Below are positions 2,739 through 21,223 of a stretch of 64,000 nt of DNA, one piece after another; the stretch's first letter is position 1; every line of letters starts with the position of its first letter. This DNA comes from Eledone cirrhosa. Lineage: Eukaryota. The DNA lies in contig OZ024745.1 of the NCBI GenBank assembly GCA_964016885.1, positions 107,074,001-107,138,000 of the forward strand, in the 5' to 3' direction. The translations under genes were made by a program, and so were the position numbers. The notes beneath the pieces are model-generated. The model saw only the letters and a list, made by a program, of their open reading frames with translations, was not told the DNA's origin and searched no databases.

Positions 2739-2743
<5 letters not shown>

Positions 2744-2946
2744 AACGAGTAGGACCCCGACGGCTGAGCTCAAGCCGTTTCGACGGCTAATTCTGGACGG
2801 CTAATAATGTCCAGAATTAGCCGACGAAACGGCTTGAGCTCAGCCGTCGGGGCCCTACTCGTTCCTATTACCCACTCTACTACCCTAACTATTGAGTACT
2901 TTGGTGTGTTATGGTCCACTTGGTTCCTTACCACATTTCCTTCGTT
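2739..2946 (+). mobile_element. Fold-back element in (TA)n with 3' half of a hammerhead, copy 1
   Basis: ~60-bp inverted arms spanning 2739-2868; GAAA-cggct..agccg-TC; shared tail tacccactctactacc..ggttccttaccac. Confidence 0.85.
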
Positions 2947-3201: not shown

Positions 3202-3718
<517 letters not shown>

Positions 3719-4130
3719 ATATATATATATATACATTTATTAAAATAACAGATTATTATTATTACTATATGACATAACCTGTGTATTTGCTGGCATGGGC
3801 GTGCATCTGTGCGCTTATGTTAGTTGATATATTAAATTATCTATATTTATCTCCAAATCACTGATTTGTCGAGCAAACTTGTCAAAACCACTTCTAAAAA
3901 AAATTTTTTTTGGGGTGTTAGTAGGCGTCAGTCATCTTACCATCCCATTCCTTCTAACTAGCCTCTGTGTCACGTGATTGATTCTTTAGAATCGGCCATT
4001 TGACTTGAAGCAGTGAGAATTTCGGTACATAGAATCCAGTCCTCGCAAGCTGTTCGATCTACCGAATTATTATTATTTTTATATGAGCCGCCAGTGTCCG
4101 CGCATTGCCTGGAGACTTAACTGAGAATAG

Positions 4131-4212
4131 ACTTCCTGATGACGCAATGAATTCTCGACAGTTGGATTACGTAACTGTCTTTATCCCATTGCAGAAACTA
4201 ATTAGTTGGAGT
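4131..4212 (+). ncRNA. Type I hammerhead ribozyme with extended stem II
   Basis: acttc CTGATGA c gcaatg..[gacagtt/aactgtc]..cattgc a GAAA ctaatta GTT ggagt; palindromic stem III. Confidence 0.8.
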
Positions 4213-4689
4213 GAAAATTTAAGTAAGAAAAAAATTTTTTTTAAATTTTTTTTAAAAAAATATTTTCTTATTTTACGTCCTTTATATTATTGTTCTGCAT
4301 TCTCCTGCATTGAACCACCTAGGTACTATGACATAACCTGTGTATTTGCTGGCATGGGCGTGCATCTGTGCGCTTATGTTAGTTGATATATTAAATTATC
4401 TATATTTATCTCCAAATCACTGATTTGTCGAGCAAACTTGTCAAAACCACTTCTAAAAAAAATTTTTTTTGGGGTGTTAGTAGGCGTCAGTCATCTTACC
4501 ATCCCATTCCTTCTAACTAGCCTCTGTGTCACGTGATTGATTCTTTAGAATCGGCCATTTGACTTGAAGCAGTGAGAATTTCGGTACATAGAATCCAGTC
4601 CTCGCAAGCTGTTCGATCTACCGAATTATTATTATTTTTATATGAGCCGCCAGTGTCCGCGCATTGCCTGGAGACTTAACTGAGAATAG

Positions 4690-4771
4690 ACTTCCTGATG
4701 ACGCAATGAATTCTCGACAGTTGGATTACGTAACTGTCTTTATCCCATTGCAGAAACTAATTAGTTGGAGT
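4690..4771 (+). ncRNA. Type I hammerhead ribozyme, second tandem copy
   Basis: Same sequence as 4131-4212. Confidence 0.8.
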
Positions 4772-4838
4772 GAAAATTTAAGTAAGAAAAAAATTTTTTT
4801 TAAATTTTTTTTAAAAAAATATTTTCTTATTTTACGTC

Positions 4839-4875
<37 letters not shown>

Positions 4876-4918
4876 CCTCATCGAGCCCTCTTCGGATTTT
4901 AGTCTTCACATTTATTAT

Positions 4919-4960
<42 letters not shown>

Positions 4961-6274: not shown

Positions 6275-6644
<370 letters not shown>

Positions 6645-6648
6645 TATA

Positions 6649-6720
<72 letters not shown>

Positions 6721-6722
<2 letters not shown>

Positions 6723-7331
6723 GGTGGCTGCCAACTCGTTTTCGAGTACGGCCACTACTTTATATCCATGTAGGAGGACCCCTACCGATGCGCTGAACGA
6801 GTGTGACTTTTCAGTCCGGCCAGCGACTTGAAAACCCCGGTACAAACACTACACATGTGACAATTATTGACACATAGTGCTGGGCCCATGGTACCATGTG
6901 ACGACAAGTGCAGAGAGATCTCCAGATATAAAGCAATGCCTGTGCCGTGAAGTTTTTATAGTGAGCAAAGGCACTGCACAAAGCCAGTCCCACTCTCTTA
7001 ACCAAGATGATATTTACCAAAAAGAAGAACAAGTCAACATCATTGGATATCATCAGGGTTGCAGGTGTGATATCAGAGTTTTCCTTCTCCTAGAATTCTG
7101 CCTTGACAAAGGCTAAGGGGTCATCTCTCCCGGTGATTTTGGATGGTCATTGACTCTTAAGAGCTCCTTTGCCCTTTGACAGGTTTTGTTTTTAGTCCTG
7201 CAGGATGTCCAAAGTCACCCTCCTCACCAAGAAAACTTGGTGGGGTTGCCAGTTTAGTCGCCAACGACCCGACCATGGGACAGGTTGTACTGGGATACAT
7301 GTTACCAGTAGCACCAACTGGTGACCTGACA
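6721..7331 (-). mobile_element. Non-autonomous RTE-related retroelement, longest copy
   Basis: rc contains ttagcctttgtcaaggcagaattctaggagaaggaaaactctga (RTE 5'UTR-type motif); ends in (TA)n; no ORF. Confidence 0.65.
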
Positions 7332-7621
7332 TAATATACATACATACATATATACATACATACACATATATATACATACATACATATATACACACATACA
7401 CATACTTATACATACACATATATATACATACATATACATATACATACATATACATATACATACACATATACATACATATATATACATACATACATATACA
7501 TACATACATATATATATACATACATACATATACACACACACACATACATACATACATATATATATACATACACACATATATACATACATATATATACATA
7601 ACATACACATATATATACATA

Positions 7622-7653
<32 letters not shown>

Positions 7654-7685
7654 CATACATGCATACACATATATATACATATATA

Positions 7686-7717
<32 letters not shown>

Positions 7718-7750
7718 CATACATACATACATATACATACATACACACAT

Positions 7751-7783
<33 letters not shown>

Positions 7784-7914
7784 CATACATACACACATAT
7801 ACACACATACATACACACATACATACATATATACATACATACATACATATACACACACACATACATATATATATATACATACATATATACATACATATAT
7901 ATATACATACACAT

Positions 7915-7947
<33 letters not shown>

Positions 7948-7948
7948 C

Positions 7949-8358
7949 ATGGTGGCTGCCAACTCGTTTTCGAGTACGGCCACTTCTTTATATCCATGTA
8001 GGAGAACCCCTACCGAAGCGCTGAACGAGTGTGACTTTTTAGTCCAGCCAGTGACTTGAAAACTCTGGTACAAACACTACACTTGTGACAATTATTGACA
8101 CATAGTGCTGGGCCCATGGTACCATGTGAGGACAAGTGCAGAGAGATCTCCAGATATAAAGCAATGCCTGTGCCGTGAAGCTTTTATAGTGAGCAAAGGC
8201 ACTGCACAAAGCCAGTCCCACTCTCTTAACCAAGATGATATTTACCAAAAAGAAGAACAAGTCAACATCATTGGATACCATCAGGGTTACAGGTGTTATA
8301 TCAGAGTTTTCCTTCACCTAGAATTCTGCCTTGACAAAGGCTAAGGGGTCATCTCTCC

Positions 8359-9970: not shown

Positions 9971-12900
9971 TCACCTACAGGCTGATATATAGAGAGAAGG
10001 CCCATTCACTCGGGCGATTCTCGCCTCTTTCACCCACCTTTCATAAAACTTGCTGGGGTAGAGCACCTCTCTCTCCATTCTGATCCTTCTTCTAATATGG
10101 TACTTGAAAAAAAGGACCAGTTGTTGGCCGGAGAGAAAATAGTCTGACCTCAGCCCATTCAAACTCGTCCAACATAGAACCTCTTTCGCCATAGCTATCA
10201 CACAGAGGAAAACCGCCTCTCCTTCGTTTTTGAAGGGGGGAGGCGGTTTGATCGTGACAATGTACTCGGTGGTCAACCGGATTGGTGCCACCCGCGACAG
10301 TAGTCGTTCCACATAGCCCCACAGGTCAGCAACGCCCGGGCAGTGTACGAATGCGCACGCGACGGTTTCTTCGTCACGCACGCATCTCGGAGAGATCTTC
10401 TTCGAGTGTTCCCTACCCGGGGACCCGTCTATGTAGAGCTTGTCCCGAACGGGTAGAGCTCCTAGGTAGCAATGCCAAGCCAGGGACTTTTGGAAATTGT
10501 CCATCGGTCCCGGGCCAAACGTCTTCCCGAACAGATTGGCTAGCTCGTCTTCTTCCATGCCCAGAGCCTCTCCGAGAGCGTCGTCGCACTTGCTGCGCAC
10601 TTGCTGCGCACGAATCCTCTATAGAATGTTGAGGTTGAGTCTCCACTGATTGCCGTATCCGCTTGTCAGAGGGCTGTGAGCGCCTGGGCACATTCAATAT
10701 GCCAGTCGCCCATTTTTTTCGGTATTTGCTTGACCCAGGATTGCAGCTCGGTGAGTGAGACGAGTCTCGGAAAGGCTCGCCTCACAAAAGGGACCCACAC
10801 CGGCTGACCGGTGAGGAATACCTGGAGGTGCCGTAGCCTTAATGCGTGTCTACGCATCTTCAGCCACGGCATCCCCAGCCCTCCGTTCGAAGGGTGTTGA
10901 CAGCAGATGGATCTTCTCACAAAATGGGCCCGCTTCTTCCAAAGGAATCGGAAGAGCGCGCGCTCTATTTTGGCGAGTCTTTTCGCTGGGCAAGGCACGA
11001 CGGTCAAGCGGTAGTAGATGACGGACGCTATATAAGTGTTCGCCACCTCCGCTCGACCTTTCAGGGATAGTTTGCACTCGGCCCACTTCTGTGCGAGTGC
11101 AAACACCCTGTCCGTTACCTCGTCCCAGTTTTTCTCCACCTGGAGGTCTGGTCCGAACTAGACCCCGAGTAGCTTCACAGGTCCCTCCGTCCAGCGTCCG
11201 ACGACGCCGTCGGAGGGCATCGGTTTGCCTCTCTACGCTCCGAGTTGCAAACCAACGGACTTGTCCCGGTTCAGCTTGGCTCCTATAAACCTTTCGTATT
11301 CCTCCAGTAAGGTGCCGATCTGCCCGATTTCCGAGGCGCACGACACCATTACCGTCATGTCAGCGGCGTAGGCCAACACCGCCTTCCGCAATCCCAGTTC
11401 CAAGGGGATTCCCTGCAACAGCTCCAACTTCCGCAGTAGTGGCTCGAGAGCCAGCACATACATAAGGGAGGAGAGAAGGCATCCCTGTCGGATGGATCGC
11501 GATTTGGAACGGCTCCGAGATGTAGCCGTTCACCTTGACTCTCGAGCAGGTGTTGCTGCTGTGCATTGCAGCAATCCAGCCCCTGAAAACGGGTCCGAAG
11601 CCTGCCGCTGCGAGCACCGCATCCAACTACCGATGGTCGACCCTATCGAACGCCTTAGATTGATCCAAGTTGATCAGGGCCCCACCAAAGCCGGATTCGT
11701 TCCCTACCCTCTCTACGATGTATCGCATGAGGTGGAGGTTGTCGTGTATGGACCTGGACGGGATTGCGCATGTCTGCGCTTCTCCCACCAGGTTCCCGAC
11801 GACAAGCGCCAACCTCTTCGCTAACACCTTGGCCAAAATCTTTAACTCAGTGTTTAGCAGAGTTATGGGCCTGAAGTTATCTATGTCATGCCCCTTGTTC
11901 TCGTCCTTCCTCACCAGCGTGACTATACCCTTGGTCACATAACTGGGAATTCTCCCGTTCTGTTGCCAGTTGTAGTAGACCGCCTCAAGGAGATTGGGGA
12001 ACAAGTCCGGCATCGCTACATAAAGTTCGTATGGTAGACCATCGAGACCGGGAGATTTGCGTTTGCCGCATTGGCTCAGCCCTTCCCCTATCTCTGAAAA
12101 CGGCCTTTCGCACGACTTCGCCTCCCCGTCCGAGAGCTGCGGCAGACCGTCAAGCTATAGACCGAAATCCATGGCCTCACCCGGCCCGCCGCCCCTCCCG
12201 AACAGTCGTGCAAAGCGCCGTTGAAAGGCCGCGCACATCCGCTCAGGTTCAAGGATCACGCGTCCATCCTGGTCCTTCAAAGACCGAATCGTGGACTTGT
12301 TTCCACTTTTTGCCTCTGTCACTCGGGCCCAGCTAACAGCTTTGGCTCCCTCGTTACCAAGAGCACGTATATTACTCCTGACAACGCAGCCCTCGTGCTT
12401 CACGTCAAAGAACTCATCTAGGGCCGTTCTTGATGCCAGCACGCCGGCCACGTTGCCACTCCTAATTGACTCTTCTACTCTATTTGTTAATTCCCTTTCA
12501 GTTCTATTCCTATCTGATGCTAATTCCTGACTAAAACCTATCGATTCTATTCTAATTTCTCTCTTGAGAGAGCCCCACCACCTGCTGTTGACAATGGCCC
12601 TCGTCAACCGCTGCTTAACTAGTGTGCTAATCCGCTTACTGTAAGCTTTGTTTGTCGGTAAGGACAAGTTTAGCTTCCAGTAACCGGGTCCTTGTCTATG
12701 GGTTCTATCAAGGTTGACCACTCCGGTCACCAACTTGTGATCCGAATAGTCAACCATGAACATTCGTGGACAGCTTAATATGTCCCTATCCTTATTTCTA
12801 ACTAGGAACCTATCTAGGTACGACCTAGATGTTCCGCTGCGATTAGTCCACGTCCACAGTGGCACAGTCGGAAAATCTAGTCGATATCTATCGGCCAGAT

Positions 12901-13417
12901 CAAATCGGCCGATTAACCGTTTGAGGCTGTTACACCCCCCTCTATTGGGACATGCCCCTACATATTCCCAACGTGCATCCATGATACCATTCCAGTCCCC
13001 CACTAAAAGCAAGGAGCGAGATGTTCCCGGAAAAGTCTCTAGGCGTTGGAAGAAGTTCGGTCGCGGTGTCCCAGATGGGGCATACGCTGCCACCAGCCTG
13101 AAGGCTCCACCTTCACTACTGCCGAGGTCTAGAACCACCAGTTGGCCCTCCGGGTCCAGGAGTAGCTTCTCTGTTGCGAGGCCCCGGTGTTTTCGCAGCA
13201 GAACGACCACCCCGCCCCCACTCCCCGGCTGACAGTGAGATGCGTAGATCTCAAAGTCGTCGAAGATGGGGGCCAGTTGGTGCTCGCTGCTGATCCTGGA
13301 CTTGCAAATAGCTATCACATCCATTATGTGCGACCTGCGGTCATTTAAGAGTTTGCCCTGCTTCCAGGACATTCCCAGGCCGCGCACATTTAAACATCCA
13401 ACTCTTATAACAGCCAT
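9971..13417 (-). pseudogene. Tx1-type ORF2 (APE endonuclease + reverse transcriptase), disrupted
   Basis: CLNVRGL, GDWNG, SYLDRF, SDH; FRPITLLNTELKILAK, LDQSKAFDRVDH; YADD mutated to YAAD; frameshifts and stops. Confidence 0.92.
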
Positions 13418-13484
13418 GTTGGTGGTGAAGACTTTAGAGTGGAGAAAAAGGAAAAGACACCTACCTGGGGACCAGGCTGCACAA

Positions 13485-15286
13485 TTACCACGGGGGTATC
13501 GGCGGGTTGTTTGGTGGGGTGGTGGTTTGTGATGTGGTGGGGACGTCACTGTGTGGTGGGGTGTGGGTGTTTGGTGGGGGAAGGGTGTCTGGGGTGGTGG
13601 TGGGGAAACATTTCAAGAGTACGCGGTTGCTAGGTCTAGTACAGGGGTTCCCCACGTCCTTGGGAAAGTTCTGTTTGAACATTGCGTAGGTGTCCTTTGG
13701 GACACTAATCATTTTTAAATGCGGTTTAGTCGCCGCGTTGGTGAACATTTTCCTTTCGGTTTCCACCGCAGGGTCTTTGTCTATTGTTTGCACAAGTGTT
13801 TTGTTGTTTGTGTTGATGTATGTATACTGTTTTTGTTGTGTTGTGTTTGTTTTTGTTTGTTGTTCTTGTGTGTGATCGCGTTTTGTAGTATGTGTTATGT
13901 TTTCGGGAGGGGTGGGTTCTTTTGTTTGTGCTAGTGTCTGTGTTATTGTTGAATTTTTGTTGATGTGGTGTCTTCTTTTCTTTCTTTTTTACCGGTTGAA
14001 AGGGTTCTCCCTCGTCGTCACTGGGTGTCCTCGTCGTAAGATGTCCTCTTCCGTGTTGTTGGCGAAGGGTATATTTTGGGGTTTTGTTGTGGTTGCTTTT
14101 GTATTTGTTTTAGGTGGGGAGGGGTTGGGTGGGACAGTGTCTTGTGTTGTTATTTTTTCGTATTGTTGTGGTTGTTGTTGTGGTGGTGGTTTTGTTGTTT
14201 GTGTGGGGTGGGCAGAAGCGTCTTTTTTTGGTGGGCATTTAAAAGGGGACAAGAAGCCCTCAGGTGACCACTTCTTGAACAGTGGCAGCATGAAGGCCGC
14301 CTGCCCTCAACAGAAATGTTTATGAAGGCGACTCCATCCAGGGACACACGCTGCGGTATTCTTGCTATCCATTCTGGTCTCATTTGGACCAGAACTTCAA
14401 GACTATTACCGCCGAATACGCCCCAGTGGATTCGTCTATCGAAAGGATTGTGTCCACATCTTCTAAGAATCCCGTTAGCACCCACCAAATGCTCACATTT
14501 GGCCTGATGCCCGAGATTCTTATCTTTTGAGTTCTTTCCCCAAATATGTGGGGAAAAGGTGTATGCTTTGGATACAATTGGCGACACAGAATATTTCCGT
14601 GTCGCCAATTCATCTTGCATTAAAACAGATATGCCTCGATACAGTTTCCCTTTCTGTATGAAAGCGATATCCTTCCAGGCACTACTAAGGACCAGCTCAA
14701 TTTCGCTTTGGGACAATTGAGCCGGTTTCCTAGTCGCGTTCGAAACTGTCATAAAAATTACGGTTCTGAGGACTGTGTCCCTTCTAATTTCTTCGGGGCA
14801 GGTAATTGTGAATTCCCCATCTTCCCCGTACTTACACAATCCCTTGCTTCTTTCAGCAATTTCTTGGCATTCGAGATGTCCAGTGCCTTGTATGTCTGCG
14901 TTTCTCGAACCGCCTGTGGCTGTGGGTCCGTTTTCTTTCGTGTTGTTATCATTGTTGTTGTTGTTATCCGTGTTGGCTTGCTTTTTTCCTTTGTTGGTGT
15001 TGTCATTATTGCTGTTGTTGGTTGTGTTGTTATTGTCATTGTTGCTGTTGCTGGTTGTGTTGTTATTGTCATTGTTGCTGTTGCTGGTTGTGTTGTTATT
15101 GTCATTGTTGTTCTTGTTTGTGTAATTGTTACTTTTGGGGTTTTCACCCATTTCCACAATTTTTTCTTTTGATTCCGTGGTGTCTTTTGCGGGGGTGAGG
15201 AGGGAAGGTTTACAGCGTTGTGCTGCTACCTTCTCTCTATCACTTTCCTTGAGGGGCGTGGCATGCGTCGTGTTAATGGCGTCCAT
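13485..15286 (-). pseudogene. Tx1-type ORF1 (Asn-rich repeats, CCHC knuckle, Pro/Thr/Lys tail), frameshifted
   Basis: ISVEGRRPSCCHCSRSGHLRASCP = Cx2Cx4Hx4C; ORFs 14150-15286, 13989-14291 and 13485-13793 overlap or lie in series. Confidence 0.8.
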
Positions 15287-15505
15287 TGTTACTAAACGAC
15301 TTTTTATCGATAACTTATAACTATCAAATTTCGCCCCAAAAAGGGGCGAAATTTATTTTGCCCAACGTCTGCAGGCCCAGACGAGGGGTTAAACACAACA
15401 AATAACAAGTAGCTTAAACAAACCTACCGCTTCTCGTAATAATTTCCGACAAAATGCAGGAGCGAAACAAAAACACGTCTATCTTCTTCGAGATAGATAG
15501 ATAGA

Positions 15506-16280
15506 TTTCTTTATTAGCCACAAGGGCGCAACAAGAAAGGGGACAATACAAAGACATGTCGGGGATTTTACATACAGTCGTGTAAAAAATATAAAAACAA
15601 ACAATTTCAACAATCGAAATCCCCAATAGGGGGGAGGCGCCACAAATGGGTTGTTTAATACCCCGTCGATAGAACAACCCTCAACTCAAGGAGCGTGTTG
15701 TGCAAGTGCTCCTTTCTTCCTTTTGCTCTCTTCCTCAACCTACAGGCTTATAAACAGAGAAGGCCCAATCACTCGGGCCATTTTCGCTTCATTCACCCAC
15801 CTTTCAGTAAATTTACTGGGGTGCAGTGCCTCTCTCTCCACCCTGATTCTCCTTCTAAAGTGATACTTAAAGAATGGAATCAATTGTTGTCCGGAGAGAA
15901 AGGCATCTGTCCTCAGTCCTCTCAACCTCGTCCACCATATAACTTCTTTCACCATAGCCACCGTACAGAGGAAAACCGCCTCTCTTTCGTTTTTGAAAGA
16001 GTCTGGCGGTTTGATCCTTACTATGGACTCGGCAGTCAACTGTATTTGTCCCATACGCGACAGCAGTTGTTCTGCATAGTTCCACAGGTCACTTACGCCC
16101 GGGCAGTGTACAATTGCGTGCAGAACTGTTTCAATGTCCTGCGCACATCTTGGACACGTCCTCTTGGAAGGATCCCTGCCAGGGCGTCCGTGCCTGTAGA
16201 TCTTGTCACGAACCGGTAGAGCTCCTCGGTAGCACTGCCAGGCCAGGGACCTCTGGAAGTTGTCCATAGGTCCCGGGCGG
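15506..16280 (-). mobile_element. 5'-truncated copy of a related Tx1 LINE, (GATA)n on both sides
   Basis: PGPMDNFQRSLAWQCYRGALPVRDK..GPSLFISL is homologous to 9971-10520; similar 3'UTR. Confidence 0.9.
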
Positions 16281-16356
16281 AAAGATAGATAGATAGATAG
16301 ATAGATAACTTTCTTTAGACAAGCATTAGACAGACGCAGTGAGAGACACAACCAGA

Positions 16357-16387
<31 letters not shown>

Positions 16388-21145: not shown

Positions 21146-21223
21146 AATTACCTCATTACCATAGATTTCCCGAATAAGACGAATACAAGAAACGTCCGCA
21201 TTCGTTCGTCAGACAAGGCAATT
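21146..21223 (-). ncRNA. Type I hammerhead ribozyme with 11-bp stem I
   Basis: rc: aattgccttgt CTGACGA a cgaatgcggacg..cgtcttattcg g GAAA tc tat g GTA atgaggtaatt. Confidence 0.8.

What the first reader, a model, noticed from the sequence alone, without database searches (positions are those of the whole stretch)
3768..4846. Young identical tandem that could release a 559-nt self-cleaved monomer (retrozyme or circRNA candidate)
Two apparently identical units each contain an intact HHR. Cleavage after 4207 and 4766 would excise exactly 559 nt. The palindromic stem III (aactaattagtt) suits the dimeric cleavage known for minimal PLE and retrozyme HHRs. Identity implies recent activity or an assembly duplication. 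Circularisation is inference.
Basis: partly seen in the sequence, partly recalled or inferred. Interest (0 to 1): 0.78.

Follow-up and report, generated by a model that had tools for sequence, protein, structure and literature searches.

The report
Ribozyme repeat riding Hydra Penelope retrotransposons
This is a young copy of a 559-base, hammerhead-ribozyme-bearing repeat found thousands of times in this animal genome; it inserts with the same two fixed end points as Hydra-type Penelope retrotransposons, so it likely borrows their enzyme and may travel as a self-cut RNA circle (untested).

Summary
Observation confirmed: 3768-4287 equals 4327-4846 exactly (1.93 units, period 559), each with a type I hammerhead; predicted cuts after 4207 and 4766 release 559 nt. 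It is not an assembly artefact but one copy of a large non-LTR retrozyme family: 12,110 exact ribozyme-core matches genome-wide, 1,376 of the young subtype, with compensatory changes in stems I and II. Copies sit in (TA)n and end at two fixed sites, A and B, about 120 nt apart. Of 77 head-to-head two-armed insertions, 69 pair one A end with one B end, none is A+A or B+B, and 8 are unresolved; 16 of 18 came from a held-out sample. A young autonomous Hydra-clade Penelope-like element obeys the same rule (10 of 10), and four such families share a CTCC..GTYGAGC motif just past B with the repeat. Both arms carry the same private variants. Likely mechanism: a Hydra RT-endonuclease primes both broken DNA ends on one RNA, probably a circle. 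Cleavage, expression and circles are untested. Known kind, unusually clear mechanistic footprint.

The parts
3768..4326 (+). First repeat unit (559 nt) of a single-armed retrozyme insertion; its 5' end is a truncation point, not a fixed family end
4327..4846 (+). Second unit, 520 nt, identical to 3768-4287; ends at fixed 3' site A
4131..4212 (+). Type I hammerhead 1 (GUU triplet, predicted cut after 4207; C.A at 10.1/11.1; palindromic stem III)
4690..4771 (+). Type I hammerhead 2 (predicted cut after 4766)
4208..4766 (+). Predicted cut-to-cut monomer, 559 nt, 36% GC, longest ATG ORF 79 codons
   Evidence: prediction
4285..4287 (+). Fixed 3' end site A (internal copy; the terminal copy is 4844-4846), about 80 nt past the cut
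4288..4405 (+). 'Tail' between sites A and B, about 118-122 nt
4404..4406 (+). Fixed 3' end site B (also at 3845-3847); not used as an end in this copy
4410..4433 (+). CTCC-N(3-16)-GTYGAGC motif just 3' of site B, shared with four autonomous Hydra PLE families (also at 3851-3874)
4847..4873 (.). (TA)n target run at the 3' end of the insertion
3381..3720 (+). Separate neighbour: 3' end of an autonomous Hydra-clade PLE family (849-aa ORF elsewhere), ending at its own site A, with a hammerhead-like motif at 3627-3671 (cut after 3668)
3332..3383 (-). Short inverted arm of that neighbour PLE, matching its tail end (site B)

Best explanation
The tandem is one young insertion of a non-coding hammerhead-bearing repeat family (a non-LTR retrozyme) that is likely copied into (TA)n runs by the RT-endonuclease of Hydra-clade Penelope-like elements, probably from a ribozyme-made RNA circle. 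SHOWN: a dispersed family in (TA)n; two fixed 3' ends A and B; two-armed insertions pair one of each; both arms share private variants; arms cross up to 15 ribozyme sites; autonomous Hydra PLEs have the same architecture and a shared motif past B. INFERRED: (1) arrays are transcribed, and paired hammerheads cut to 559-nt monomers that a host ligase closes (about 0.6); (2) the Hydra protein binds near the motif past B and cuts both strands of a TA run; one DNA end primes at A, the other at B, on the same RNA or on sibling RNAs (about 0.8); (3) both cDNAs run on across the ribozyme site for 0.1-15 units and their 5' ends are joined head-to-head; when only one end is extended, a single-armed copy such as this one results.
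For: Family size and youth. Ribozyme fold kept across units 69-100% identical: 94.7% of cells paired, 48 cells with changes on both sides against 18.4 shuffled, slid controls 34-47% paired. End rule: 25 of 25 two-armed insertions among 39 top-hit arrays, 28 of 34 among 60 position-ordered loci, 16 of 18 among 32 held-out loci after the prediction was written down; none A+A or B+B, while single-armed young copies end at A and B about equally (15 and 13). Autonomous 784-aa element: 10 of 10 loci A+B in (TA)n, with the Hydra marks RWK, DKT, CxCX5C, CxxC, CxH (defined in PMC8557442 section 11). Motif past B in 4 of the 4 PLE families where that junction was held and in 18 of 22 monomers, against 1 hit in 118 kb of background. 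One source per insertion: 14 of 39 arrays are fixed for a substitution, and 13 of 13 such substitutions covered by both arms are in both; the partner arm differs by 12 substitutions per kb against 48 for the median other arm (67 of 81 pairs testable). A cut linear monomer would give at most about 80 nt from A or 200 nt from B (sequence arithmetic). Dimeric active fold -44.8 kcal/mol against 2 x -19.9 for separate inactive monomers. A PLE protein cuts and extends both strands and starts internally at two sites in vitro (PMC11167929). Similar repeats make circles in coral, mussel and axolotl (PMC7229834).
Against: No cleavage, expression or circle was shown. The monomer's best fold is an inactive one (-19.9 against -17.4 active); the triplet is GUU (slower than GUC, recalled) and 10.1/11.1 is unpaired. 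Only 1 of 9 frog retrozyme dimers cleaved in vitro (bioRxiv 2026.07.22.740005); the anole PLE ribozyme needed protein and was dispensable for insertion in vitro. Three of 39 arrays carry a substitution in some but not all units (L038 2 of 10, L043 6 of 16, L050 2 of 7), which a single monomer circle does not explain. No autonomous element with extended similarity to the unit was found among the loci fetched, so the helper is assigned by architecture and a short motif found after looking. Two of the 8 unresolved two-armed copies (L206, L243) pair a B arm with an arm that stops inside the tail and could be exceptions. In 20 of 67 pairs some other locus was closer than the partner arm. The unit-by-unit register of tract variants between partner arms was mixed.
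Confidence: 0.62

Rival explanations
1. Same Hydra helper and same two priming sites, but the template is an uncleaved linear multimer transcript; the ribozyme only sets RNA ends or level, and arrays regain length by template jumps or DNA-level expansion.
For: Uncleaved RNA was the main substrate in vitro and no RNA-seq ends lay at the cut for the anole PLE (PMC11167929). Mixed arrays L038, L043, L050. A few rare tract variants lie in register on partner arms (L049, L067). Non-canonical ribozyme positions.
Against: Arrays are mostly all-or-none for substitutions, up to 15 of 15 units, which needs amplification from a single unit in each lineage. The ribozyme is kept with compensatory changes in all sampled subfamilies. 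L038's variant is in one arm only, not in register.
Confidence: 0.27
2. The inverted arm arises by fold-back self-priming (for example on an antisense RNA), not by a second target-primed synthesis.
For: Proposed for rotifer Penelopes from junction palindromes (PMC3846280 passages). 6 of 40 junctions have the two 5' ends within 20 nt of the same phase.
Against: 34 of 40 junctions join unrelated phases; both outer ends lie exactly at A or B in (TA)n, which fold-back alone does not predict.
Confidence: 0.05
3. A satellite-like repeat spread at DNA level, with a dead ribozyme relic.
For: Local DNA-level duplication is likely in a few arrays.
Against: Fixed 3' ends, variable 5' truncation, TA targeting and inverted arms match retrotransposition; covariation in the ribozyme.
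Confidence: 0.04
4. The dimer at this locus is an assembly duplication of one unit.
For: The two units are identical over 520 nt; no long reads were seen.
Against: 34 of 39 sampled young arrays have two or more near-full units, with array-specific variants; the copy ends exactly at site A like 5 other single-armed arrays of that set.
Confidence: 0.02

Closest known systems
Metazoan non-LTR retrozymes (PMC7229834; bioRxiv 10.64898/2026.07.22.740005)
   Same: Tandem non-coding units with one type I hammerhead each, GC under 50%, thousands of copies, dimers to multimers, structured predicted circle, co-occurring PLEs.
   Different: 559 nt is above the 170-400 nt given for invertebrates but inside the 51-972 bp range of the 2026 preprint. 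Two fixed 3' ends, two-armed insertions, TA targeting and a motif shared with a named helper clade are not described in the parts of those papers that I read. No RNA evidence here.
Hydra-clade Penelope-like elements (PMC8557442, section 11)
   Same: (TA)n target, hammerhead near the 3' end, partial tandems, inverted 5' arm, tail at one end; in this genome also the A+B rule and the motif past B.
   Different: No ORF; no extended sequence similarity to the families fetched; tail 97-145 nt in these Hydra families and about 120 nt in the repeat, against 30-40 nt in the literature.
Poseidon PLE of the green anole, PAc (PMC11167929)
   Same: Internal start of reverse transcription at two sites that bound the tail; AT-rich target; both strands extended.
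   Different: In vitro no difference in start site between strands was seen and the tail was called optional; here two-armed insertions never repeat the same site (0 of 77, with 8 unresolved).
Non-autonomous Chlamys elements such as MRC1 (PMC8557442 passage)
   Same: Non-coding PLE dependants with multicopy head-to-tail insertions.
   Different: Most Chlamys lack hammerheads; those elements share 3' sequence with their helpers.

Membership tests
Type I hammerhead ribozyme | Core CUGANGA / GAAA / NUH with stems I-III | tested here: met
   Core letters invariant in 18 diverse copies; the 3' core was the search key for these copies, so its invariance is not independent.
Type I hammerhead ribozyme | Watson-Crick pair closing stem II (10.1-11.1) | tested here: not met
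   C.A in 62 and A.A in 2 of 65 distinct copies (one further row was a mis-parse); a U.U mismatch there is reported in an active axolotl ribozyme.
Type I hammerhead ribozyme | Self-cleavage activity | not testable with these tools
   Energy predictions only.
Non-LTR retrozyme | Tandem units each with a type I hammerhead, no coding ORF, GC under 50% | tested here: met
   (36% GC, longest ATG ORF 79 codons).
Non-LTR retrozyme | Dispersed multicopy family with signs of retrotransposition | tested here: met
Non-LTR retrozyme | Expressed as unit-length linear and circular RNA | not testable with these tools
   No raw RNA reads were available to lay; see Tried and rejected.
Hydra-clade PLE dependant | Same target, tail and inverted-arm architecture as the autonomous element | tested here: met
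Hydra-clade PLE dependant | Extended sequence homology to an autonomous element's terminal repeat | tested here: inconclusive
   None in the PLE loci fetched, only a short motif; about 60,000 endonuclease candidates exist and 150 were scored in each of two searches.
Autonomous PLE | RT plus GIY-YIG ORF | tested here: not met
   No long ORF in the unit.
Plant LTR retrozyme | Type III hammerhead in LTRs with PBS and PPT, 4-bp TSD | tested here: not met
   Type I topology; arrays of many units; ends in (TA)n.

The most novel reading that the evidence does not exclude
A Hydra-clade RT-endonuclease pair primes the two ends of one broken TA run at two fixed, non-interchangeable sites on a single ribozyme-made RNA circle, and both copies roll round it. 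This would explain the PLE 'tail', the inverted arm and the tandem arrays in one step, for the 559-nt retrozyme and for the 3.2-kb autonomous element alike.
Probability: 0.35. Interest if true: 0.78.

Novelty: new variant of a known kind. Interest (0 to 1): 0.55.

Why it matters
How animal retrozymes move, and how Penelope-like elements make their tail and inverted arms, are named as open questions in the papers read. This genome holds a young helper with near-identical intact copies and a 559-nt non-coding passenger with two mapped start sites and a shared short motif. That gives exact predictions for an in vitro assay: which strand starts where, whether a circle gives multi-unit cDNA, and which motif the protein needs. 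The element class itself is known.

Tried and rejected
(1) Genomic footprint of cleavage: 5' ends of arms were enriched in the 25 nt past the cut in the first two samples (15 against 4.7 expected, 140 arms), but the held-out sample did not confirm it (2 against 1.2, 42 arms, P 0.34); there the ends piled up in the A/T-rich tract further 3'. Rejected as evidence. (2) Expression: no RNA holder listed; two runs guessed to be RNA laid 0 contigs on 3768-4217; neither bears on expression. Three runs of one sample hold 85-89% of the words and may be the source. (3) Rfam at gathering threshold: nothing. (4) Pfam did not name the three full Hydra ORFs; one endonuclease piece gave a weak GIY-YIG match, E 0.003. 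(5) Search for a sequence-related autonomous parent: none in the loci; a 4.6-kb gap between two ribozymes on contig C1 showed only simple-repeat ORFs. (6) A 121-nt tail query returned no candidates, an empty answer that shows nothing. (7) Register test of tract variants between arms: mixed. (8) The scan's earlier notes held nothing by place, words or sequence. (9) No fold or complex prediction was run.

Full report
1. The observation. The window is AT-rich and full of (TA)n runs and lies in a 3.0-Gb assembly. Bases 3768-4287 equal 4327-4846 exactly, period 559, so the array holds 1.93 units. Each unit has a type I hammerhead, with predicted cuts after 4207 and 4766. The triplet is GUU and positions 10.1/11.1 are C.A. 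Rfam finds nothing at gathering level.

2. It is a family, not an assembly error. The unit gave 238 matches at the 40 places scored of 487 candidates, mostly 99-100% identical. A 19-nt piece of the ribozyme core occurs 12,110 times and a 26-nt piece of this subtype's stem II 1,376 times; both reversed controls give 0. Cut-to-cut monomers of 522-571 nt span 69-100% identity (21 monomers from 60 position-ordered loci). In 18 diverse ribozymes (18 of 65 distinct: the window's plus 17 of 20 picked for diversity) 94.7% of cells pair, 8 of 19 pairs change on both sides, and slid controls pair 34-47%; relatedness inflates the shuffle control, and stem III was the search key. Contigs from runs of two other coded organisms carry long pieces about 88-99% alike.

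3. Insertion anatomy. I mapped three samples: 39 top-hit young arrays including this one, the first 60 loci along contig C1, and 32 further young loci fetched after writing down predictions. Copies lie in (TA)n or neighbouring simple repeats, are 5'-truncated at many points, and end at one of two sites: A, about 80 nt past the cut, and B, about 120 nt further on. Many have a second, inverted arm joined head-to-head. One arm ends at A and the other at B in 25 of 25, 28 of 34 and 16 of 18 such insertions; none is A+A or B+B. The other 8 have one arm ending elsewhere, and two of them (L206, L243) could be exceptions. Single-armed young copies use A and B about equally (15 and 13), so independent choice would give the same site half the time. 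The window's copy is single-armed and ends at A.

4. One source per insertion. Outside the homopolymer tracts, 14 of 39 arrays are fixed for a substitution, up to 15 of 15 units, and 13 of 13 such substitutions covered by both arms are in both. The partner arm differs by 12 substitutions per kb against 48 for the median arm elsewhere; it is strictly closest in 22, tied in 25 and beaten in 20 of 67 testable pairs. Three arrays are mixed (L038, L043, L050), which points to later DNA-level duplication or a multimeric template.

5. The likely helper. The neighbour at 3332-3720 is the end of another family (1,670 candidates) that leads upstream to a GIY-YIG-type endonuclease and an 849-aa ORF. Searching with such endonucleases found families with 784- and 798-aa ORFs. 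All three carry the R-W, CxCX5C, CxxC and CxH marks, and two carry DKT; these define the Hydra clade, which targets (TA)n (PMC8557442 section 11). The 784-aa family is very young and shows the same build: two arms, A plus B, in 10 of 10 loci. Distances from cut to A are 51-58 nt and from A to B 97-145 nt in the PLEs, against 79 and 118 in the repeat. Just past B, four PLE families and 18 of 22 monomers share CTCC-N(3-16)-GTYGAGC, against 1 hit in 118 kb of background; the motif was found after looking. No longer similarity to a PLE was found, so the exact parent is unknown.

6. Mechanism. Shown: sections 2-5. Inferred: the Hydra protein binds near the motif, cuts both strands of a TA run, and primes one end at A and the other at B; the two cDNAs are joined at their 5' ends. 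This extends the in vitro behaviour of the anole PLE, which extends both strands and starts at two internal sites bounding the tail (PMC11167929). A cut linear monomer offers only about 80 nt 5' of A and 200 nt 5' of B, yet arms cross up to 15 ribozyme sites, so the template is a circle or an uncleaved multimer. All-or-none variants and a conserved ribozyme favour the circle; mixed arrays and the anole data keep the multimer alive. The monomer ribozyme prefers an inactive fold (-19.9 against -17.4 kcal/mol), while two copies paired through the palindrome reach -44.8 in the active form (artificial linker), which fits cleavage in multimers and stability of a monomer circle. The circular monomer folds at z = -5.1 against 30 shuffles, probably helped by its A/T palindromes. 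An apparent excess of 5' ends just past the cut failed in the held-out sample and is dropped.

7. What is known. Non-LTR retrozymes and their circles are described in PMC7229834 (I read parts 2-4 of 6; supplement unreadable), and their PLE origin is argued in bioRxiv 10.64898/2026.07.22.740005 (parts 1-3 of 5), where 1 of 9 dimers cleaved. [quoted passage not shown] So the asymmetry is known in words. A strict one-of-each count, a tail of 100-145 nt, and a retrozyme that follows the rule and shares a motif with Hydra elements were not found in eight full-text searches, which miss most subscription journals and Repbase. The lower activity of GUU is recalled, not from a call.

8. Verdict. The added value is the insertion rule and the named helper, which make the PLE and retrozyme cycle directly testable. 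Interest 0.55.

Noticed in passing
window 3332-3720: Two-armed 3' fragment of an autonomous Hydra-clade PLE family (849-aa ORF, long 3' UTR) with its own hammerhead-like motif.
   Followed up: yes
L157 (G000:C4:39640000-39649999): Very young 3.18-kb Hydra PLE with a 784-aa ORF in many near-identical copies; long-stem hammerhead; Pfam does not name the protein.
   Followed up: partly
L168:5300-7001, minus strand: A second tandem family with a 310-nt unit and a compact hammerhead (at least 5 copies in a row), also ending in (TA)n.
   Followed up: no
L170:4122, L215:653 and 166, L222, L224, L228: A third recurring compact hammerhead (palindromic CTAG loop); two copies 487 nt apart in L215.
   Followed up: no
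window 21157-21212, minus strand: Hammerhead-like motif with an 11-bp stem I (G-U rich) in a repeat that matches 4 fetched loci; may be chance.
   Followed up: partly
window 2740-2870: Near-perfect 130-nt hairpin repeat between TA runs; matched 49 of the fetched locus records (some overlap); MITE-like.
   Followed up: partly
window 4874-4925: Short repeat end beside the array, found in 23 fetched locus records, usually next to TA runs; perhaps the end of another TA-targeting element.
   Followed up: partly
window 9971-16387, minus strand: Broken LINE-like element(s) with endonuclease- and RT-like ORF pieces (label by eye, not tested).
   Followed up: no
window 6341-6481: Inverted repeat around a short TA run, followed by fragments repeated at 6425-7089 and 7192-8317.
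   Followed up: no
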